From contig OX597817.1 of the NCBI GenBank assembly GCA_951406725.2, positions 77,624,001 through 77,688,000 on the forward strand: 64,000 bases of DNA, read 5' to 3'. The position numbers and the translations under genes were made by a program. Source of the stretch: Octopus vulgaris. Lineage: Eukaryota. Below, in pieces: positions 9,075 through 63,334 of the stretch; within the stretch, counting starts at the first letter, position 1, and each line of letters opens with the position of its first letter. Under the pieces are notes generated by a model. It saw only the letters and a program-made list of their open reading frames with translations. It was not told where the DNA came from and searched no databases.

Positions 9075-9270
9075 AAGTTAATCCAAACAAGAAAGCAAAA
9101 AAAAACACAACAACGCGAGGACGTGGAACAAATATAGTATTATTGGACGCTCAGGAAAGAAGGAAAGGAGGAGGGTTTAACGTTTCGAGCGGAGCTCTTC
9201 GTCGGAAACATAGGAGAAGGAAAGATCTAGAGAAGAGAAGACGGAGGAAAAAAATCCCCAACGGTACACA
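9075..9270 (-). mobile_element. Short hammerhead-bearing repeat (family H1) next to (TA)n
   Basis: Homologous to 25690-25887, 36765-36880 and 58070-58165; motif at 9175-9209. Confidence 0.7.
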
Positions 9271-9584: not shown

Positions 9585-10004
9585 GGCGGCGAGCTGGCAG
9601 AATCGTTAGCACGCCGGGCGAAATGCGTAGCCGTATTTCGCCTGCCGTTACGTTCTGAGTTCAAATTCCGCCGAGGTCGACTTTACCTTTCATCCTTTCG
9701 GGGTTGATAAATTAAGTACCAGTTACGCACCGGGGCCGATGTAATCAACTTAATCCGTTTGTCTGTCCTTGTTTGTCCTTTCTGTGTTTAGCACCTTGTG
9801 GGTAGTAAAGAAATAGGTATTTCGTCTGTCTTTGCGTTCTGAGTTCAAATTCCGCCGAGGTTGACTTTGCCTTTCATCCTTTCGGGGTCGATAAATTAAG
9901 TACTATTAACGCACTGGGATCGATGTAATCGACTTAATCTCTTTGTCTGTCTTTGATTGTTCCCTCTGTGTTTAAGCCCCTTGTGGGCAATAAAGAAATA
10001 AGAA
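9585..10004 (+). mobile_element. tRNA-derived SINE family B (dimeric body)
   Basis: A-box-like TGGCAGAATCG and B-box GAGTTCAAATTCC, central GTCGACTTTGCCTTTCATCCTTTCGGGGTCGATAAA consensus repeated twice, tail ...AATAAAGAAATAAGAAA. Confidence 0.8.
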
Positions 10005-21029: not shown

Positions 21030-21620
21030 GTGTTGGAGAATTGATAGAAGCGTTAGTGCGTCGACGGGGTTTTGAGTTCAAATCCTGCCTACGTTAACTT
21101 TGTCTTTTATCCGTCTGGGGTCAATAAAATAAAAAATTAACAGTGTAGGGCAGTGAAGTGACACAGTCGTTAGTGCTTCGGACAGGATACCCGTAGTATG
21201 TATACCAATGTTTTACGTTCTGAGTTCAAATCTTGCAGAGGTCAACTTTACCTTTTACCGTTCGAGGTTCGATAAAATAAAAATTAACAGTGTAAGGTAG
21301 TGGATTAGTGGAATCGTTAGAGCTACGGACCGGATACCTAATAGTGTTTATTCCATCGTTTTACGTTCTGAGTTCAAATCTCGACGAGGTTAGCTTAAAT
21401 TTTCATCCATCCGGGTTCTGTAAAATAGAGAATCGTGGGAAGTAAGTATTCTGGCAGAATCGTCAGAGCATCAGACAGGATACCTTGAGCTGTTTGTTCC
21501 AGAACAATTCCGTTCTGGGTTCTACTTCCACGGGGCTCAGCATTCTTCTATGATGTCTTGGGGTGTTTGTTCGAACTGTTTGCATTTTGCGTTCAAATCC
21601 CTGCGTGGTCCACTTGTATG
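21030..21620 (+). repeat. Tandem array of degenerate SINE-B head units (period about 130-150 bp)
   Basis: Recurrent CGTTAG ... (C)GTTCTGAGTTCAAATC ... ATAAAATAAAAATTAACAGTGTA units, 4-5 copies. Confidence 0.7.
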
Positions 21621-24430: not shown

Positions 24431-25536
24431 TATTGAATCATCCCATAAATAATGCGTTTTTTCATACATCTTTTACTTTTCAAAATTAAGATAATCAAAG
24501 TTCTTTTTTAAAATAAAATATACTCTCCTTCATTTTTTACAATGCCCTTCCATCTGTCTGGTAGACTTGCAAGGCCCCTCTTCCAAAATTGACTTGTCCG
24601 TGACGAAAAATACTCCTCTAGTACTGTTCTGACCTCGTGTACAAAATTCATATTTTTTTCCGTCCAAATGATTTTGAAGACTGCGGAGTAAATGATAATG
24701 AGATGGGACAATGTCCACCGAATATTGTGGGTGGGGCATCGTTTCCCATACAAACTGCTCCAGTCTTTGGAATGTCATCTACGCTGTACGTGGCCGAGCA
24801 TTATGCTGATGGAAGAACACTTTTCGTCTTGACACCTAAGATGGTCGCTTTCCGATGGTACGCAGGTGCCGATGAATGTTTAAATAACCAAATCCAAGCT
24901 TCTTTGCTAGTTCCTCAACACTTACAATATGGTTTGCAAGACGTCCACGTCGAGCTCTAGAGATCTTCCAGAAGGCTCGTCTTCTAGGCTGTAGTTTCTG
25001 GCTCGGAATTTCTGGGACCACCGTTGACACTTTGCGCTTATTTTCCAATCCCCGTATACTGCATTAATATTCATCGCACTTTGTGTTGTGCTGTTGCCTT
25101 TATTGAGCTCATAAAGCAAAATATACCGAACATGCTCTTTTGTCACTTCCATTATAGCTTTCAAATAAGCGGCGAGCAGGCAGAAACGTTAGCACGCCGG
25201 GCGAAATGCGTGTTTAGCTCCTTGAGGGTAGTAAAGAAATAGGTATTTCGTCTGACGTTACGTTCTGAGTTCAAATTCCGCCGAGGTCGACTTTGCCTTT
25301 CATCCTTTCGGAGTCGATAAAATAAGTACCAGTTGCGTACTGGGGGCGATCTAATTGACTGCACCCACCTCCCTCAAAATTTCGGACCATGTGCCTAGAG
25401 TAGAAAAAGAGCATAGCTTTCAAAAAATAACTGTTAAAATCGAACTGCACTTTTCAGAACTTGCACTAAGAATAATTACAAGGTAAAATCAATTCCTGCG
25501 TTTATAGCAGGCTGATGCAGATAGTTTATCCCGTAC

Positions 25537-25580: not shown

Positions 25581-25882
25581 TAAGAGAGTGGTCACTATAT
25601 TGCTCACTCTAGCACCAGTTAATCCAAAAGGTTTCAACCACGAAAATACATGCTTACCATGAAAGTCAGTACGATTGTTAGCTCACACCGCGTGTGTATC
25701 GTTGGCGATTTTCTATCTCCGTCTTCCCTTTCTTGGACTTTTCCTTTTTATATGTTTCTGACGTAGAGCTCCGCTCGAAACGTTAGATCCTCCTTCTTTC
25801 TTTCCTTCCCTGAGTGTCCAATAACACTATACTTGCTCCACGTTCTCGCGTTGTTGTGTTTTCTCTTTGTTCATGTTTGGAT

Positions 25883-29706: not shown

Positions 29707-29910
29707 GTTTGGATGATAGATCGCCATGATAGATCGGTAGCCACTACACACATTTTTTTCTCTCCTTGTTTCTTTCTGTGTTCCTTTCTGTGGAAGAGCG
29801 TACGCTCGAAACGTAAAAGACTTTTTCAATTCCCGAGCGTTTTACTAATACATCTGTTTGTTTTCTACACCACCTGTCTTTGTCTTTTGTTTTTTCATGA
29901 ATCGTTCCCC
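29705..29910 (+). mobile_element. Hammerhead-like repeat family H2 in (TA)n
   Basis: Homologous to 62375-62570; motif CTTT-CTGTGGA-A-GAGCGTACGCTC-GAAACGTA-AAAG at 29784-29819, core degenerate. Confidence 0.65.
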
Positions 29911-31064
29911 TATATATATATATATAGAGAGAGAGAGGGGGAGAGAGGGAGGTTACGTGTGAATCCAGTGAGTCTTTCCCCTGACACCGCTTTAAAACAA
30001 ATGGTGCCTTTGTTTATATCCCATCGCATTAGCTGTCCAATATTCAGATATCGACAAGATAAATATCAGGCTTAAAATTAACAATAAGGGATCGTTATAC
30101 TCAACCGCAAAATCCCTTTAAGGCGGTTCTCCATTATGGACGCCATCCAATGAGTGAAACAAGTAAACGAGTATATTTATCCCCCTACTCTTTTCACCTG
30201 ATAGCTATAACTTTGATTGTCATTGAGACTAAATATTAACCTTGCTGAAGACTGTGTCGATGGATTTAATTGCTTGGATACTATTGTTATATTTTAGCTG
30301 CAGTTTAGCGTCAGAGTTTAAAAAAAAGCTTCAGAAATTTATTTTTGTCAGAATGATTGTTTGTGTGTGTGCATGTCTATGTATGTATGTATGTATGTAT
30401 GTATGTATGTATGTATGTATGTATGTATGTATGTATGTATGCATGTATGTATGTATGTATGTATGTATGTATATATGTATGTATGTATGCACGTATGTAA
30501 TTATGTATGTATGTATGTACATATGTAATTATGTATGTATGTATGCATGCATGTTTGTATATATAGATGTGTGTGTGTGTGTGTGTGTGTGCGCGTGTGT
30601 ACGTATATATGGTATGAATTGCTTGAGAGAGAGAAGTCAGCCAGCTCGACCAAACACCTCATTAAGATTATGCTTGAAAATTCTTAATAAATGATAAATT
30701 CAAAGAAAGAAAATGCCGAAATTATCTATCAGCAAGCTCCTTAACAGCTCCTTGGCAGTAGTGATCATTGCGATAACAAGAAGCTCATTGCTACGCTGGA
30801 AGAAAATTCTTTTGAAGTTTAACCAAGCTGAACGCTCTTTTAATGACGTTTTGATGGTGAAGTGCAGCTGTTTAAAAAAAAAACAAAAAAAAACAAATGG
30901 CTTACGATTGTGGCCGGGCACTGTTTTAACAAAGAATAAGCTAAGAAAGTTTGCCAAGACTACACCTTGGCTTCGACGATAGGCTGGTGCCATTTTTTGA
31001 CATTGTGGGTGGTAGGTAGGATGAACTCGCCACCCAATTTCTTGTAGCATATTTGACTGTAGTC

Positions 31065-36188: not shown

Positions 36189-36779
36189 TTTTTCTTTTAT
36201 TCGCTTATTCTTTTATTTGTTTCAGTCATCTGACTGCGGCCACGCTGGAGCGCCACCTTTTGTCAAATAAATCGACCCCAGGACTTTGTAATCCCAGTAC
36301 TTATTGTATCGGTCTCTTTTGCCGAACCGCCAATTTACGGTAAACACAACAGCATCGGTTGTTAAGCGATGGTGGTGGGGGTGACATTATATATATAATG
36401 GCTGTATGGTAAGACGCTTGCTTCCCAACCATATGGATCTGGGTTCAGTCCCAATCTGCGGCACCTTGGGCAAATGTCTTCTATTATAGTCTCGGGCCGA
36501 CCAAAGCCTTGTGAGTGGATTTGATAGGCAGAAACTGGAAGAAACCCGTCGTATAAATGTATATATATTTGTATATATTTATGTGTGTGTGTTTGTGTTT
36601 GCGTGGCTAGGTGGCAAAAAACTTGATTCTGAGCCACATGGTTCTGAGTTCAGTCACACTGCATGGTACTTTGGGCAGGTGATTTCTGCTATAGCCACGG
36701 GCAGACTAAAGCTTTGTGAGTGGATTTGGTAGGCGGAAATTGAAAGAAACCCGTCATATATATAAAGAAAAGGAAGAGG

Positions 36780-36814
36780 ATTTGACGTTTCGAGCGGAGC
36801 TCTTCATCAGAAAT
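36780..36814 (-). ncRNA. Minimal type I hammerhead ribozyme motif (family H1)
   Basis: ATTT-CTGATGA-A-GAGC(TCC)GCTC-GAAA-CG-TC^AAAT: intact core, GUC site, palindromic ACGT stem III. Confidence 0.7.
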
Positions 36815-37098
36815 ATAGAAAGAGTCCAAAGAAGGGAAGACGGAGAAAGAAAATCGCTAACGATACACACGCAGTCACATATATGCATCTATGTGTGTTT
36901 CTTTGTGTCTATGTAATCCACCACCACCACCGCAGCTTGACAACTGGTGTTGGTGTGTTTACGTCTCTGTAACCTAGCGGTTCGGTAAGAGGGACCGATA
37001 GAATAAGTACCCAGCTCAGCAAAATATATGTAATGGAGTCGATTCATTCGACTGAATATAGATATAAATATAAATATAAATATATATAAATATATATA

Positions 37099-38474: not shown

Positions 38475-39781
38475 CCTTCTAATTCTGGGACAAGGCCAGC
38501 AAATTTGAAGAGAGACCGTAAGTCGATTATATCGATCTTGGTACTTCGCGGTACTTAATTTTATCGACCTCGAAAGGACGAATGGCAAAGTTGACTTCAG
38601 TGATATTTGAACTTGGATTGTAAAGATTCGGAAGAAACGCCGCTAAGCATTTTGTCTGGCGTGCTAACGATTCTGTCAGCTCGCCGTTTGTGCACCAAAA
38701 ATAATAACGATGGTCCCAAATTTTGGCACTAGGTCATCAGTTTCGGTGGATGGGCTGATTGATTAGATCGAACCCAGTGGTACTTATTCTATCAACCCTG
38801 AAAGGATGAAAGACAAAATCGACCTCGGTGGAATTTGAACTCAACGTAAATACAGACGAAATACCTATTTCTTTACTACCCACAAGGGGCTAAACACAGA
38901 GGGGACAAACAAGGACAGACAAAGGGATAAATCGATTATATCGACCCCAGTGCGTAACTGGTACTTGTTTTATCGACCCCGAAAGGATGAAAGGCAAAGT
39001 GGACCTCGGCGGAATTTGAGCTCGGAACGTAGCAGCAGACGAAATACCTATTTCTTTATTACCCACAAGGGGCTAAACACAGAGCGGACAAACAAGGACA
39101 GACATAGGTATTAAGTCAATTACATCGACCCCAGTGCGTAACTGGTACTTAATTTATCGACCCCGAAAGGATGAAAGGCAAAGTCGACCTCGGCGGAATT
39201 TGAACTCACAACGTAACGCAGAAGAAATACTGCTAACTTTTCTGCCAGCTCGCCGCCCTTTCAAAAACAATGATAAATATTGTTCCAAATTTAAATTTTG
39301 GCACAAGAATGGCAATTTCAGGAGGAGCAGGGTTAGTTGATTACATCGACGCCAGTACTTCACTCGTACTGTGTTTTATCGACCTCGAAAGGATTACAAA
39401 ATTGTCAGAACGTTGCGTCGGATGAAATACCGCGAAACATTTTTTTGCAACATTCTAATATTTTGCCAGCTCACCGCCCTACCCACAACGACGACGACGA
39501 CGACAACGACGACGACGACGACAACGACGACGACGACGACAACGACAACAACAACAACAATCCTGTCTCCAGTAAGCACAATGCCTGAAATTTTGGGGGA
39601 GGGATAAGTCGACATTTTGTGAGGAGGGATGAGTCGTAAATCGCTCAACTGGTACTTATTTCATCGAATCCAAAAAGATGAAAGGGAAAAGTCGACATCG
39701 GCGGAATTTGAACTCAGAACATAATGACGGACGAAATGCCGCTAAGCGCTTTCCCCGGCGTGTTGATGATTCTGCCAGCTC
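38475..39781 (-). mobile_element. Cluster of SINE family B copies with an internal (ACG/ACA)n repeat
   Basis: Multiple reverse-complement copies of the 9585 family. Confidence 0.75.
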
Positions 39782-43828: not shown

Positions 43829-43907
<79 letters not shown>

Positions 43908-43915
43908 GTATATAT

Positions 43916-44132
43916 ATATGCTTTATTTAAAGCAGCAGAAAATTCAACAAGTTTCACGTTGCCGTTCATCGGACAGTTTTTGCTAGCAAAAACTGTCCGA
44001 TGAACGGCAACGTGAACCTCAGAGTAACAGGTTTTGTTGAATTTTCTGCTGCTTTAAATAAAGCATATTACTCTACCACTGGTATTTGAGAACTCTTTTT
44101 TCCACCTTGTTTCACATTTATGTGTTTACTCC

Positions 44133-44135
<3 letters not shown>
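43916..44135. mobile_element. Fold-back hammerhead element family H3, copy 1
   Basis: Palindrome centred on GCTAGC at 43982-43987; homologous to 63069-63297; flanked by (TA)n. Confidence 0.8.
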
Positions 44136-44193
<58 letters not shown>

Positions 44194-44662
44194 TTATTAT
44201 ATAGAAGGAGCTTCTACAGGACTAGTACTGTTTCATTCAAGAGAAATCTTCAGGAAGCTATTTAACAAGAATTGTATTAGCATTTATACATTTAGAGGAG
44301 TGGTGGTGGGGGACTTTTTGGGGGTAGGCATAGCGCAAAATATCATACTTGGGGAGTGGTCAAGGTAATAAAAAAATAAAATAAAATAATAAAAAAATAA
44401 AAAAATAAAAAAAAAAAAAAAAAAAAAAAAAATAAAAAAATAAAAGGATAAAATAAAAGAATAAAAAATATAAAAAATATAAAAAATATAAAAAATATAT
44501 ATAAAAAAATATATAAAAAATATATATATAAAATATATATATAAAATATATATATAAAAAAAAGGGGGGGATAGAGTTATAGGTAAATAAGGAGATTCTC
44601 ACTTATACCTATACACACATGTATACGTATCTACACACACATACGCACATACACATATATCT

Positions 44663-44713
<51 letters not shown>

Positions 44714-45362
44714 CCTACACATACACACATACATACATACAAATATACATATACATATATATATATACAATCCAATACAGGCCCATTCCCTAATTTTAAT
44801 TTTATTATCTTCATTTATTACTTTTGTTATCTTTGATCGCTAGGGCTAAGAATCCTGGCAATAGCTGCTTGTCCGTTTGTCTGTCTACTAGAAGGCAAGT
44901 ACTCATTCCCGCACGCACACTCATTAGCACGTACATTCACCCATTCGTACACTCATACACATACACGTACGCACGCGTTATATTCATACATACAAACATC
45001 TACATACGTTCACGTATATACATTTATATATTTTTTTATATATATTTTTTATATTTTTTATATTTTTTATATTTTTTATTCTTTTTATTTTATCCTTTTA
45101 TTTTTTTATTTTTATTTTTTTATTTTTTTTTTATTTTATTTTATTTTTTTATTTTTTTATTTTATTATTTTATTTTATTTTTTTATTACCTTGACCACTC
45201 CCCCAAGTATGATATTTTGCGCTATGCCTACCCCCAAAAAGTCCCCCACCACCACTCCTCTAAATGTATAAATGCTAATACAATTCTTGTTAAATAGCTT
45301 CCTGAAGATTTCTCTTGAATGAAACAGTACTAGTCCTGTAGAAGCTCCTTCTATATAATAAA
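44194..45362. repeat. About 330-bp inverted repeat pair (44194-44520 / 45023-45362), each arm carrying a hammerhead
   Basis: Arms are reverse complements apart from variation in the A/T-rich tract; spacer about 500 bp. Confidence 0.85.
45296..45346 (+). ncRNA. Type I hammerhead ribozyme motif (mirror copy at 44209-44259, minus strand)
   Basis: AGCTTC-CTGAAGA-T-TTC(TCTT)GAA-T-GAAA-CAG(TACTAGTC)CTG-TA^GAAGCT. Confidence 0.75.
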
Positions 45363-45441
45363 TTAATTTTACTCTGCTATGTATTGAGTACCTTACTTAC
45401 TGTGGTTAACCCCGTATCAACCCGGGAACTACATATATATG

Positions 45442-49816: not shown

Positions 49817-50343
49817 GTGGTAATTTGTACCACAACCAATAAAAAAATATGTTTGTATGATTTTTCTTTGAGTTTTATCTAAGCTCTTGAGAGAGTTTAA
49901 GTCGGCCGCTAACAAAGCGACAATACCTATTTTTAGTTAAGAGAGTTCCCGGTGTTTGTAAATATACGGTTGAGTTGGTGTATTGGTTGACCTCTCAACA
50001 TATACATCCAAGTGTGTGCATCTATTAACATAAGAATGTCAAATGGAGAATTTTCGGAGTGTCTTACAAATCTTCACTGTGCCACTAACAGATTGGGTTT
50101 GGAGAATCGGCGGCAGTTACTTTTGAACTTACTTCGTGAAATCGAGTATTTCTAGATTTTTGTGTTAGTTTGGTGCTACACAACCTTATGCACCTATGAA
50201 GATAGGTACAAATGGGAGTTCATAATCAGGGTACAAGAGCTGTAAGTTCTGCATTAATTCGCCGTAAAATTTCTCTTTTTCTTGGACTTTTGGTTGTATG
50301 TATGTATGTATGTATGTATGTATGTATGTATGTATGTATGTAT

Positions 50344-50876
50344 GACACATGGGAAGGCATAGCTATTGATCGTAGCAGGTGGAGAAGGATTGTGCATGAG
50401 AGGACAGCCACTTTTGAGAAATCTCGAGTTGCACATGAGAAAGTAAGGAGGGATGTCAGGAAGGGCATCGCTGTTACACTTCCAGAAGGGAAGGGTCTTG
50501 CTTTGATTCTGACGTGCAATGTCTGTGCAAGACCCTGCCTCAGTAAAGCTGGACTCATGAGTCATCTTCGAGGTCATAAAACGAGACAGATGAGTGACAA
50601 CCTGGCCACTGGTGGTGGTGTAACACACCATACTAATCATATCTGTCGGGCATGTGGAAGAGAGTGTAATTCGGCAGGAGGACTTAAACGACATGCAAAG
50701 GTACATGAAGCCCAGTTACAACTACAGCCGGCTATTACAGTAAAAGTTTTAGTTGCCAATTTTGTACAAGACATTGTAGATCTTTTAGCTGGGCTAAAAA
50801 GTCACATTCGATCACAGCACCAGTAACAGTTAAGCTTCGTGCAATGGCCATACTCGATAACGAGGGGGCAGCCATA
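50344..50876 (+). pseudogene. 5'-truncated RTE/BovB-like LINE 3' end with C2H2-type zinc fingers
   Basis: DTWEGIAIDRSRWRRIVHE motif, then CNVCARPCLSKAGLMSHLRGH, CRACGRECNSAGGLKRHAKVH and a frameshifted CQFCTRHCRS/LAGLKSHIRSQH; short 3' UTR and simple-repeat tail. Confidence 0.75.
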
Positions 50877-52006: not shown

Positions 52007-52726
52007 TATGTACGTATGCATTTATGTATGTATGTATGTATGTATGTATGTATGTATGTATGTATGTATGTATGTATGTACGTACGTACGTACGTATGCA
52101 TACATGTAGAAAATAGAACTTGTGCTGCAAACTCTGTGTTTACCTTTTCACAACTAGTCTAAAACAAAAATGTATATTATACATTTATACTGTACATTCA
52201 TTACTGACCTATAGCTTACATTTTAAATTATCCAAAGTGCTGTACAATGGAATAACTAGAGCACGCTCACGCACATATATACACACATATAGGCACACAC
52301 ATACGTACCTATATATTTTTTATGTGTGTATGTATATGTGAGTAGGTATGACATGTTTGCATGTAGATGGATGCAAATAGGCAGACAGTGATACGCACTT
52401 AACAGTAGATAAATTTACATTTCTGCCTGTGTTGGTCAAAACCACGTCAAATCTTTAGCACCACCTAGTTAAGTATTTTAAGCTACATTTTGGGTCATCC
52501 GAACCCACTCTAGTTGAGAATTCTTGGTATTCAAACCTATATATTGGAAGAATTTGTCCATAGGCGCAGGAGTAGCTGTGTGATAAGTAGTTTACTTACA
52601 ACCACATGGTTCCGGGTTCAGTCCCACTGCGTGGCACCTTGGGCAAGTGTCTTCTACTATAGCCTCGGGCTGACCAAAGCCGTGTGAGTGGATTTGGTAG
52701 ACGGAAACTGAAAGAAGCCCGTCGTA

Positions 52727-52797
<71 letters not shown>

Positions 52798-52800
<3 letters not shown>

Positions 52801-53424
52801 TAATGTAGGATAAAATTTTTTTCGGGAAAAAATTTTTTATCAATGGCCAGCATATCAAAAAATACCTTTAAAGGTTAAATTTATAAATAATTTACAAAAT
52901 TAGGGCAAAAGAAAAATTCTAATGCCAAATATGCTGAAAAAAAGACAAAAGTTGTCAATAACCATTATAATTTATGTGTCTCGAAACAAACCGATAGAAA
53001 TTTCTAAAAAATCCGTTATTACTGTATTGGTCCCAATTTCGGGGTTAATTCATAAGAATTTTCTCCTCTTCAGCGATAAATACGTGAGATATAAGTCAAA
53101 TACTTACTCATACCCATGGAAAAAGCAAGCACTAAGTCCTGAGCAGACCTAAGTACCCCAAATATATCCAAAATAGAAAATCTTCGGCACATCTCGAAAC
53201 ACGTGTGATTCGAACTAGAAACTTTCACAGAGGGAGAGAATTATAACTAATGTAGGATAAAATTTTTTTCGGGAAAAAAATTTTATCAATGGCTGCGTAT
53301 TTATCGCTGAAGAGGAAAAAATTCTTATGAATTAACCCCGAAATTGGGACCAATACGGTAATAACGGATTTTTTAGAAATTTCTATCGGTTTGTTTCGAG
53401 ACGCATAAATTATAATGGTTATTG
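52798..53424. mobile_element. Penelope-like non-autonomous element with direct and inverted segments and two hammerheads
   Basis: Direct repeat 52798-52847 / 53245-53293; inverted repeat 52956-53084 / 53296-53424; flanked by (TA)n. Confidence 0.7.
53301..53361 (+). ncRNA. Type I hammerhead ribozyme motif (mirror copy at 53019-53079, minus strand)
   Basis: TTATCG-CTGAAGA-GG...AATTC(TTAT)GAATT...CC-GAAA-TTGG(GA)CCAA-TA^CGGTAA. Confidence 0.8.
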
Positions 53425-53425
53425 T

Positions 53426-53465
<40 letters not shown>

Positions 53466-54074
53466 GGGGGGGTGTATATATGTTTGTGTGTCTGCGTTTG
53501 TCACCCAACATCGCTTGACAACCGATGGTGGTGTGTTTACGTCTCCGTAACCTAGCGGTTCGGCAAGAGAGACCGATAGGATAAGTACTAGGCTTACAAA
53601 GAATAAGTCCTGGGGTCGATTTCTTCGACTAATGGCAGTGCTCCGGCATGGCTGCAGTCAAATGACTGAAACAAGTAAAAGAGATACCACTTGAAGACTT
53701 ATGGATCCTTTTTCTTGAAGTTACAGTTTGGAACATCATAACATATGTATATCTTTGTCATCAGTCATATCAAGATATCGTTGTTTTATTTCGTAAATCT
53801 GGGAAGAATTTGTCCAGGTACCATGTGAAAACTAAGGTATCCTCTTCCTTGAAGTTACATTTTGGAACATCGTGATACTTAGAATATCGTAACATTGGAA
53901 CATTGTAACATATGTACTTCTTTGCAGTCAGTCATATCAGGATACCGTCCTTTTGTTTAGTAAATCTAGGAAAAATTTGTCCAAGTACCATTTGGAGACT
54001 TATGGATCATCTTCTCCCTTGATGATTTGTAAGGCCCCGGTATTTTGTTATAAACCATAATATTATATAAAGTA

Positions 54075-54632
54075 TTGGGTTGTCCGGAAATTCGTGCCGA
54101 AAGTAGCTTACCTTTCGACTTATTTTAGAACATGGTTGAGTCCATAAAATAGGATTTGACTACACCTCCATTTAGAGCACAGTTTAAGATATATTTTCGT
54201 GGAAGAAGGTTTATGTTCCTATAACCTGTGTTAATTCTGTAACCTTTTAAAATGGAAGATAAGAAAGTTCATTTTCGGCACTTGATGCTTTCTTTTTCCG
54301 TAAAGGACAAAATACCTCACAAAAATATGCGCAGTTTACGATGATATTTCTTTATCCGAAAGAACTGTACGGAAGTGGTTCGCAAGGTTCCAAGCTGGAG
54401 ATTGTAGCCTTATTGATAAAGGGCGATCAGGCATTCTATCCACTACAGATGATGACCAAATCAAGTCATTAATTGAGAATAACCCACACTGCACAATCCG
54501 AGAATTGGCAGAAAGCCTCAACCTATCAAAATCCGTCGTTCATGAGCACCTGGTAAAGCTTGGGTAATGGCAAGTATTTATTGACCTTTTTCTTTCTTTT
54601 AAAAATCGGCACGAAGTTTCCGGACAACCCAA
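54075..54632 (+). mobile_element. Internally deleted mariner retaining the transposase N-terminus
   Basis: TIRs TTGGGTTGTCCGGAAA / TTTCCGGACAACCCAA, TA flanks; MEDKKVHFRHLML ... SERTVRKWFARFQAGDCSLIDKGRSG ... TIRELAESLNLSKSVVHEHL. Confidence 0.85.
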
Positions 54633-61573: not shown

Positions 61574-61885
61574 AGGGTGTTCGGGCAAAATTTTACGATT
61601 TTTTACGTCTAGTTTTTCTCAGGAACAGCTTGAAATATTGGTGAACAGTCAAAGTCGCTGCAAAGCATAAAGATTAAAGTTGTACTTAAAAAAAACATTA
61701 GTTGACATGGAGGACTAGAAGCCATCTGAATATTGAAAAAAAGTTTCTTATATCGTGATGATTCGCGCCGGGTATAAAAATGCCAACATCATAACAGTTG
61801 TTCAATGCGCTATAAACATTGTAAAGACTGTAAGACCATGGACAGCTTCAATGGAAACTATGACACCTTGGCCAACATGAAGATG
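61574..61885 (+). mobile_element. 5' fragment of a Tc1/maT-like transposon
   Basis: TA-CAGGGTGTTCGG start; decayed frame IVMIRAGYKNANIITVVQCAINIVKTVR. Confidence 0.45.
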
Positions 61886-62365
61886 ATACACACGGACTCG
61901 AATTTCTGGGTGGTTACCTGTCCTCAGCATGTGTTAATCACTGGCTAGTGATAAAATCTCATTCCACTCGCAAATTACTATATACTTTTCTAGCAATTCA
62001 CTGCCGCTCATCTCGTAAAAGATAGAGATATGTTATATTAAATCTTTGAGCGAGATATCAACAGTAGCGGTACGGAATCGTATCATGTATTTGCCAACTA
62101 AGTGTGGTATCCTATACAGGACAGTGCTACTGCAGGAAGACATCTCCGCCAGCTGGCTAATGTCACACAGTCTGTGTCCGATTAGTATTTACGAGGGGAG
62201 GTCATCACTCCCATCTCTAGCCTTACGTGATATACATGGACTCGAGTTTCTGGGTGGTTACCCGTCCTCAGCGTGTGTTAATCACTGGCTAGTGATGAAA
62301 GCTCATTCCACTCGCTCATTACTACATACTTTTAAAGCGACTCACTGTCGCTGATCTCGTAAAAG
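61884..62365 (+). repeat. Direct repeat of about 135 bp (61884-62021 and 62229-62365)
   Basis: GGACTCGA(A/G)TTTCTGGGTGGTTACC...ATCTCGTAAAAG occurs twice. Confidence 0.8.
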
Positions 62366-62374
62366 GCAGCCGCA

Positions 62375-62674
<300 letters not shown>

Positions 62675-63057: not shown

Positions 63058-63068
63058 ATATATATATA

Positions 63069-63295
63069 CTTTATTTTAAGCAGCAGAAAATTCAACAAAA
63101 TCTGTAACTCTGAGTTTCTCGTTGCCGTTCATCAGACAGTTTTTGCTAGAAAAAACTGTCTGATGAACGGCAACGAGAAACTCAGAGTAACAGATTTTGT
63201 TGAATTTTCTGCTGCTTAAAATAAAGCATATTACTCTACCACTGGTATTTGAGTACTCTTTTTCCACCTTGTTTCACATTTATGTGTTTACTCCG

Positions 63296-63297
<2 letters not shown>
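63069..63297. mobile_element. Fold-back hammerhead element family H3, copy 2
   Basis: Palindrome at 63069-63226; flanked by (TA)n. Confidence 0.8.
63156..63193 (+). ncRNA. Minimal hammerhead ribozyme motif (mirror copy at 63102-63139, minus strand)
   Basis: CTGT-CTGATGA-A-CG(GCAA)CG-A-GAAA-CTC(A)GAG-TA^ACAG. Confidence 0.7.

Positions 63298-63334
<37 letters not shown>

What the first reader, a model, noticed from the sequence alone, without database searches (positions are those of the whole stretch)
52798..53424. Pseudo-LTR-like layout: direct repeat, inverted repeat and two canonical hammerheads
The layout is A-x-B'-y-A-B, where B contains a canonical hammerhead (G-C closing stem II, 5-bp stem III with a 2-nt loop, AUA site). 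The mix of partial tandem and inverted segments is characteristic of Penelope-like insertions. It is the best single link between the small elements and that class.
Basis: partly seen in the sequence, partly recalled or inferred. Interest (0 to 1): 0.7.

Follow-up and report, generated by a model that had tools for sequence, protein, structure and literature searches.

The report
Truncated Penelope-type insertion carrying hammerheads
This is a short, probably dead fragment of a Penelope-type jumping gene that pasted three partial copies of its own end, one of them backwards, into a TA repeat; the layout is already known for this class, and only a possible intron around the ribozyme is mildly curious.

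Summary
The layout is real. A (52795-52847 / 53242-53293) is a direct repeat, 50 of 53 identical; B (53296-53424 / 52956-53084) is an inverted repeat, 126 of 129 identical. Both B copies keep every hammerhead core base and an AUA site. 'Two canonical hammerheads' overstates it: a 5-bp helix III with a 2-nt loop cannot form in one molecule (it is a dimer-type palindrome), B' has a mismatch in helix I, helix II is weak, and Rfam finds nothing. Read on the minus strand, the insert is [inverted B][A][y-B-x-A] inside the (TA)n of a common repeat. This matches the published Penelope-like (PLE) pattern: 5'-truncated partial tandem, inverted 5' copy, terminal tail, palindrome at the inversion. No RT or GIY-YIG frame and no second copy was found in the window, and no animal genome could be searched, so the parent element is untested. 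A 447-nt non-autonomous unit is the main rival. New here: strong splice signals (53107 to 52934) enclose the whole ribozyme. Verdict: ordinary member of a known kind; interest 0.22.

The parts
52560..52726 (+). Left half of the host repeat (abundant SINE-like element; the label SINE is recalled, not tested)
   Evidence: 19 other hits in the window, 75-92% identical; 19 of 19 have a same-strand right-half hit within 1.5 kb, 10 of 19 with a gap under 100 bp
52727..52797 (.). (TA)n microsatellite, left part of the target site
52798..52847 (-). A1: 3' end ('tail') of the main copy, with an imperfect hairpin at 52809-52841
   Evidence: 50 of 53 identical to A2; hairpin -3.7 kcal/mol
52848..52955 (-). 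x: single-copy part downstream of the ribozyme; holds the candidate 3' splice site and a multibranch fold closed by a 9-bp helix (52936-52928 with 52856-52848)
   Evidence: fold z -5.03, 0 of 200 shuffles as good; helix mean probability 0.97
52934..53107 (-). Candidate 174-nt spliceosomal intron enclosing the hammerhead: GTAAGT donor at 53107, TTGAC branch motif with A at -22, pyrimidine tract, CAG ending at 52934 (inferred; no RNA data)
   Evidence: ordered donor-acceptor pair in 13 of 5000 shuffles of the 444-nt unit, criteria set after inspection
52956..53084 (-). B': ribozyme-bearing segment of the main copy; core at 53073, predicted cut between 53025 and 53024; helix I has a C.A mismatch at its second pair
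53085..53241 (-). y: single-copy 5' part of the main copy; 53202-53174 is predicted to pair with 53006-52976 (27 bp, 5 G.U), enclosing the ribozyme
   Evidence: mean pair probability 0.96; duplex -31.5 kcal/mol, 3 of 1000 shuffles as good; no protein homologue
53242..53293 (-). A2: 52-bp tandem copy of the tail, with a perfect 32-bp palindrome-like hairpin (53256-53287) next to the inversion junction
   Evidence: (-8.6 kcal/mol)
53296..53424 (+). B: inverted, 5'-truncated copy; core at 53307, predicted cut between 53355 and 53356; helix I 6 bp + 2x2 loop + 3 bp
53422..53432 (+). Right junction; these 11 bases also occur in x at minus-strand 52897, hinting at a 58-nt microhomology deletion or template jump (weak)
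   Evidence: 19 of 20000 shuffles of x hold the 11-mer; 549 of 20000 hold the 8 bases past the junction
53430..53458 (.). (TA)n microsatellite, right part of the target site
53470..53683 (+). Right half of the host repeat
   Evidence: 18 other hits in the window, 71-90% identical among the paired ones

Best explanation
A single, young, 5'-truncated insertion of the terminal (pseudo-LTR) region of an endonuclease-bearing Penelope-like retrotransposon, made by target-primed reverse transcription in the (TA)n tract of an older repeat. The RNA sense is the minus strand. Inferred steps: the PLE protein nicks the TA tract; reverse transcription starts at the 3' end of A (tail) and copies A, x, B', y for about 447 nt; it restarts at the same point and copies only A (52 nt); a further cDNA primed from the other side copies B (129 nt) and is joined head to head, giving the inversion. 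The ribozyme is the usual pLTR type I hammerhead, built to cleave as a dimer or with protein help. At this locus it is probably silent, because any read-through RNA folds B onto B'. Shown: repeats, boundaries, core bases, target, predicted folds. Inferred: PLE origin, order of events, cleavage, splicing.
For: Layout equals the described PLE arrangement: partial tandem, adjacent inverted 5'-truncated copy, tail at one end only, (TA)n target (PMC8557442 passages; PMC8969392 passages). The inversion is head to head beside a 32-bp palindrome, as reported in PMC3846280. Both A copies end at the same 3' point, as expected of a fixed internal start of reverse transcription (PMC11167929, parts 1-2 of 4). 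Type I hammerhead with self-complementary helix III (PMC4209133). Splice signals around it fit the intron-bearing pLTRs of Penelope and Chlamys. The insert interrupts a repeat whose halves lie under 100 bp apart in 10 of 19 other cases, against 743 bp here. All 3 B/B' differences are transitions, 2 of them at CpG: ageing, not sequencing error. Whole-locus folds pair B with B' and give all hammerhead helices probability 0.0. PLEs are reported as recently active in Octopus vulgaris (PMC13282606 passages); that the host is an octopus is my recall from its repeats, not a tool result.
Against: No RT or GIY-YIG match in 300 translated frames (299 of the 311 non-repetitive frames of 45 aa or more, plus one more). 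No second copy in the window. The 56-codon frame in y found no PLE protein. A is about 52 bp, longer than the 30-40 bp tail described. Helices I and II are about 6 and 4 bp with no 5' bulge, closer to the 'canonical' retrozyme hammerhead than to the minimal PLE form (helix II 7-8 bp, helix I 4-5 bp). No target-site duplication can be read in (TA)n. No Rfam match.
Confidence: 0.6

Rival explanations
1. A non-autonomous 447-bp unit (y-B-x-A), a mini-PLE or non-LTR retrozyme, copied about 1.1 times round a circular or multimeric RNA by a PLE enzyme in trans, with an inverted partial copy added. The hammerhead would cut multimers to monomers that circularise.
For: A1-to-A2 spacing is 447 bp, inside the 150-450 bp range of metazoan retrozymes (PMC7229834, parts 2-3 of 6). 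The unit is strongly self-paired: z -3.38 as a circle and -3.34 linear, 0 of 40 shuffles each; the plus strand gives z -1.67, 2 of 30. Helix sizes resemble the canonical type. No coding remnant. A preprint derives such units from pLTRs (10.64898/2026.07.22.740005, parts 1-3 of 5).
Against: Only one hammerhead per strand, so it fails that preprint's criterion of two consecutive ribozyme-bearing units. Most of the folding signal comes from x and A (z -5.03, -4.28), while y (z -0.57) and B' (z +0.84) alone are unremarkable. The word 'inverted' does not occur in PMC7229834 and its one 'intron' hit is in the reference list. Splice signals point to an mRNA with a downstream ORF.
Confidence: 0.3
2. 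A single hammerhead-bearing insertion later rearranged at the DNA level (replication template switching or break repair at the A palindrome and the TA tracts), so that the duplication and inversion say nothing about PLE integration.
For: A holds a near-perfect palindrome beside the junction; long (TA)n tracts flank the site; possible microhomology deletion at the right junction.
Against: Both A copies share the element's 3' end. The arrangement is the one documented for PLEs. Two other hammerhead-bearing families in the window have an inverted shorter copy upstream of a longer one.
Confidence: 0.07
3. An assembly or fold-back read artefact.
For: Inverted repeats between long TA runs are hard to assemble; I had no reads.
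Against: The copies differ by 3 transitions in 129 bp, 2 at CpG, and by 3 of 53 columns in A; the host repeat resumes in register.
Confidence: 0.02

Closest known systems
EN+ Penelope-like elements (Penelope/Poseidon, Neptune, Nematis, Hydra clades): truncated pLTR insertions
   Same: Partial tandem, inverted 5'-truncated copy, tail at one end, palindrome at a head-to-head junction, (TA)n target, type I hammerhead with palindromic helix III, splice signals in the terminal repeat.
   Different: No ORF here, so clade is unassignable. Tail-like A is ~52 bp rather than 30-40. Hammerhead has a longer helix III and an interrupted helix II. The candidate intron encloses the whole ribozyme; in D. virilis Penelope the intron's 3' end meets the 5' side of helix I.
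Metazoan non-LTR retrozymes (coral, mussel, axolotl; PMC7229834)
   Same: Non-coding unit of 447 bp, low GC, type I hammerhead with ~6/4-bp helices, self-paired fold.
   Different: Not a tandem array of ribozyme-bearing units; has an inverted copy and splice signals; no RNA evidence.
Naiad PLEs
   Same: Same tandem/inverted layout and (TA)n preference.
   Different: Naiads lack canonical hammerheads and are reported as old remnants in cephalopods; this element has a full core and is young (2.3% between copies).
Rfam hammerhead families
   Same: Core bases and type I topology by descriptor.
   Different: No Rfam model scored it, even at E<=10.

Membership tests
EN+ Penelope-like element | ORF with telomerase-like RT and GIY-YIG endonuclease linked to this terminal sequence | not testable with these tools
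   No RT/GIY-YIG hit in 300 window frames, expected for a truncated copy; no animal genome collection was available to find the parent; y frame found no PLE protein
EN+ Penelope-like element | Partial tandem forming a pseudo-LTR | tested here: met
   A repeated in direct orientation, 447 bp apart, same 3' end; the tandem part is only 52 bp
EN+ Penelope-like element | Inverted 5'-truncated copy at the 5' end, head to head, often with a palindrome at the junction | tested here: met
   B vs B' 126 of 129; palindrome 53256-53287 lies 9 bp from the start of B
EN+ Penelope-like element | 30-40 bp tail at one end only | tested here: inconclusive
   A (52 bp) behaves like a tail; the inverted copy lacks 158 bp (x and A), not 30-40; needs more copies
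EN+ Penelope-like element | Type I hammerhead in the pLTR with short or palindromic helix III | tested here: met
   Core intact; helix III self-duplex -12.3 kcal/mol
EN+ Penelope-like element | AT-rich / (TA)n target | tested here: met
   Inserted in the (TA)n of a common repeat
EN+ Penelope-like element | Retained spliceosomal intron (in some families) | tested here: inconclusive
   Donor, branch motif, pyrimidine tract and CAG in order; 13 of 5000 shuffles; splicing itself untested
EN+ Penelope-like element | Target-site duplication | tested here: inconclusive
   Unreadable inside (TA)n
Non-LTR retrozyme | Tandem units of 150-450 bp, at least two consecutive units each with a hammerhead | tested here: not met
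   One unit plus 52 bp; the second hammerhead is on the opposite strand
Non-LTR retrozyme | Highly self-paired non-coding monomer | tested here: met
   z -3.38 circular, 0 of 40 shuffles
Non-LTR retrozyme | Expressed as a circular RNA | not testable with these tools
   No RNA data
Hammerhead ribozyme (type I) | Conserved core and NUH site | tested here: met
   Both copies
Hammerhead ribozyme (type I) | Three helices form around the core | tested here: inconclusive
   Possible in B; helix I mismatched in B'; not the favoured fold in either
Hammerhead ribozyme (type I) | Self-cleavage | not testable with these tools
   Needs an in vitro assay

The most novel reading that the evidence does not exclude
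The parent is a Penelope-type element (or a 447-nt satellite of one) whose whole hammerhead sits inside a 174-nt spliceosomal intron and is clamped by a 27-bp helix between exon 1 and the intron. Splicing and self-cleavage would then be alternative fates of one RNA: spliced, ribozyme-free RNA for translation; unspliced, cleavable RNA as template. That would offer a direct test of why PLEs keep both introns and hammerheads. I did not see a wholly intronic PLE hammerhead in the passages read; the nearest is the D. virilis intron that ends at helix I. Supplements and subscription papers were not seen and may hold such cases.
Probability: 0.2. Interest if true: 0.5.

Novelty: new member of a known kind. 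Interest (0 to 1): 0.22.

Why it matters
Little, as it stands: truncated tandem/inverted PLE ends with hammerheads are common in animal genomes and this window alone has several. It is a clean small example in which three truncated copies can be ordered, and it marks a young family worth annotating. It would matter more if the splice signals are used, because the role of PLE hammerheads is open (PMC11167929 found cleavage dispensable in vitro) and so is the reason for intron retention.

Tried and rejected
Rfam: 0 matches at gathering threshold over 64 kb; 13 matches at E<=10 in 52700-53500, all TA-repeat or chance, none a ribozyme. Coding remnant in y: the 56-codon frame 53073-53240(-) gave 1 hit among 1.84 billion representatives (E 4.6e-05, 34%, six repeated stretches), whose Pfam matches are unrelated to PLEs, so it was dropped; 0 of 11 candidates scored at E<=10 among longer proteins (weak evidence by the tool's own note). 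PLE ORF in the window: none in 300 frames; 420 of 731 frames were left out as low-complexity and 12 shorter ones were not scanned. Prokaryote genomes: one 19-base match, flanks 13 of 42 and 12 of 68 identical, no core upstream, about 4 expected by chance; the upstream-core test printed was invalid and was redone. y as an old inverted duplicate of B: alignment score reached by 1380 of 2000 shuffles, rejected. Strand bias of the y-B' helix as proof of RNA-level selection: both strands beat shuffles (3 and 1 of 1000) and the yB' segment has z only -1.95, so not claimed. Intron as a shared trait of the window's hammerhead elements: of 8 other positions examined (one mis-centred), 1 shows a weak donor-then-acceptor order, so not shared. 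Truncation at hairpin feet: A2 ends beside a helix of probability 0.97 but B beside one of 0.37; suggestive only. Host species: a mariner fragment's best hit was an amphipod protein at 73%, which does not identify the host. Viral and metagenome contig collections were not searched, so copies there stayed unchecked.

Full report
Observation. A occurs at 52795-52847 and 53242-53293 in direct orientation, 50 of 53 columns identical, 447 bp apart. B at 53296-53424 is the reverse complement of 52956-53084 at 126 of 129 bases. Nothing else in the window resembles A, x, B or y: the best outside match has E 0.12. The insert is bounded by (TA)n on both sides.

The ribozyme. Both B copies carry CUGAAGA, GAAA, the G-C pair closing helix II and an AUA site, in type I order. 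In B, helix I has 6 pairs, a 2x2 loop and 3 more pairs. A descriptor set after seeing the motif finds only this site in the window and none in 0 of 60 shuffled windows. 'Two canonical hammerheads' is too strong. Five pairs round a 2-nt loop are not a permitted hairpin; the same 12 bases pair with a second copy as a 10-bp duplex at -12.3 kcal/mol, the dimer signature. Each copy has one lesion relative to the other: B' a C.A mismatch at the second pair of helix I, B one pair fewer in helix II. The hammerhead fold is 4.0 (B) and 7.2 (B') kcal/mol above the best fold and helix III has probability 0.0. Rfam scores nothing. Because the copies face each other, a transcript of the whole locus from either strand folds into a long B:B' hairpin in which all hammerhead helices have probability 0.0. 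Weak activity is normal for this class: PMC4209133 reports low cleavage even for dimers and PMC11167929 reports a protein-assisted ribozyme.

The site. The flanks are two halves of one abundant repeat. All 19 other left-half hits have a right-half hit within 1.5 kb (some pairings are with nested neighbours), 10 of 19 with a gap under 100 bp, mostly TA/TG runs; here the gap is 743 bp. The element is thus an insertion into that repeat's microsatellite. It is younger than its host: 2.3% between B copies against 8% or more between host copies. The 3 differences are transitions, 2 at CpG, and the 2 bases before B read TG in one copy and CA in the other, as a decayed CpG would. This argues against an assembly artefact.

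Reading on the ribozyme strand. On the minus strand the order is [B inverted][A][y, B', x, A] then (TA)n: a 447-bp copy, a 52-bp tandem copy with the same 3' end, and a 129-bp inverted copy joined head to head next to a 32-bp palindrome. PMC8557442 describes this for PLEs: 5' truncation, partial tandems, an adjacent inverted 5'-truncated copy, a 30-40 bp tail often at one end, and (TA)n targets (passages). PMC3846280 notes palindromes at head-to-head junctions (passages). PMC11167929 explains the tail by internal initiation of reverse transcription at AT-rich targets (parts 1-2 of 4). PMC4209133 reports paired hammerheads 100-700 bp apart on opposite strands in Schistosoma, in a passage that ties most dispersed motifs to truncated PLEs. 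I infer three cDNAs from one RNA species: two started at the end of A, one primed from the far side. The order of events is inference.

What is missing. The defining ORF was not found: no RT or GIY-YIG match in 300 frames (299 of 311 non-repetitive frames of 45 aa or more, plus one), and the open frame in y has no PLE relative. No animal genome could be searched. So I cannot separate a truncated autonomous element from a 447-bp non-autonomous unit. For the latter: the size fits retrozymes (PMC7229834), the unit folds well (z -3.38, 0 of 40 shuffles), and helix sizes look canonical. Against it: there is no array of ribozyme-bearing units, and the folding signal comes mostly from x and A. A preprint treats such units as pLTR derivatives, so both readings need PLE enzymes; together I give them about 0.9.

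On the minus strand a GTAAGT donor at 53107, a TTGAC branch motif with its A at -22, a 14-base pyrimidine-rich tract and CAG at 52934 define a 174-nt candidate intron that contains the whole hammerhead. An ordered donor-acceptor pair of this strength arose in 13 of 5000 shuffles; criteria were chosen after inspection, and the window holds 27 such donors and 10 such acceptors on both strands. Introns in pLTRs are known for Penelope and Chlamys, and in D. virilis the intron ends at helix I. A predicted 27-bp helix (53202-53174 with 53006-52976, probability 0.96) encloses ribozyme and donor. Only 1 of 8 other hammerhead-like positions in the window shows even a weak version of the donor-acceptor order. 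Splicing is not shown.

Host. The repeats look to me like those of Octopus; this is recall. The one protein search aimed at it gave an amphipod mariner at 73%. If it is an octopus, PMC13282606 lists 31 recently active Penelope-like families in O. vulgaris and has 0 occurrences of 'hammerhead' (passages); a search for octopus + Penelope + hammerhead listed 4 papers, none on this family by title.

Papers seen. PMC4209133 parts 1-2 of 4; PMC11167929 parts 1-2 of 4; 10.64898/2026.07.22.740005 parts 1-3 of 5; PMC7229834 parts 2-3 of 6 and passages; PMC8557442, PMC3846280, PMC2377424, PMC8969392, PMC13282606, PMC8967140, PMC6765202 passages only. No supplements were read; family consensus files there could already hold this element.

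Verdict. A real feature, correctly pointed at Penelope-like elements, but of a kind already described. It works like a truncated PLE pLTR insertion; membership rests on layout, target and ribozyme, not on the ORF. New member of a known kind, interest 0.22; about 0.5 if the intron round the ribozyme proves real and conserved (probability about 0.2).

Noticed in passing
window 63064-63300 and 43878-44176: Another family with a minimal hammerhead core on both strands of an asymmetric palindrome (63064-63231, 96% self-complementary) between TA runs; two copies 88% identical. Same inverted-short plus direct-long layout.
   Followed up: partly
window 44192-44517 and 45023-45432: Inverted pair, 95% identical over 341 bp, each with a hammerhead-like core (-44253, +45302) and a palindromic helix III; the longer copy runs about 70 bp further to a TA run.
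   Followed up: partly
window 61884-62021 and 62228-62365: Direct repeat 344 bp apart, 88% identical, each with a minimal hammerhead core and palindromic helix III on the minus strand; retrozyme-like dimer.
   Followed up: partly
window 36764-36875, 25687-25803, 9160-9270: Small family with a minimal hammerhead core lacking helix III (-36810; variant core at -9205); the 36764 copy also sits in the TA tract of the same host repeat.
   Followed up: partly
window 62384-62585 and 29729-29926: Another short repeat, 83% identical between copies, with a degenerate hammerhead-like core by eye.
   Followed up: no
window +63456: Second site passing the looser type I descriptor; not examined.
   Followed up: no
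window 24925-25188 (-) and 54304-54564 (+): Mariner-type transposase HTH fragments (Pfam HTH_48, E 5.5e-13 and 1.1e-08); best relative of the second 73% identical.
   Followed up: partly
window 50206-50823 (+): Frame with weak C2H2 zinc-finger matches, interrupted by a TATG microsatellite; resembles the end of an RTE LINE ORF (recalled).
   Followed up: no
window 9633-10000, 38778-39230, 21069-21427: Tandem arrays of 184-bp and 148-bp units of SINE-like sequence.
   Followed up: no
window 52477-52560 and 53682-54000: Diverged 134-167 bp repeats lying on both sides of the host repeat, suggesting the SINE itself inserted into an older tandem array.
   Followed up: no
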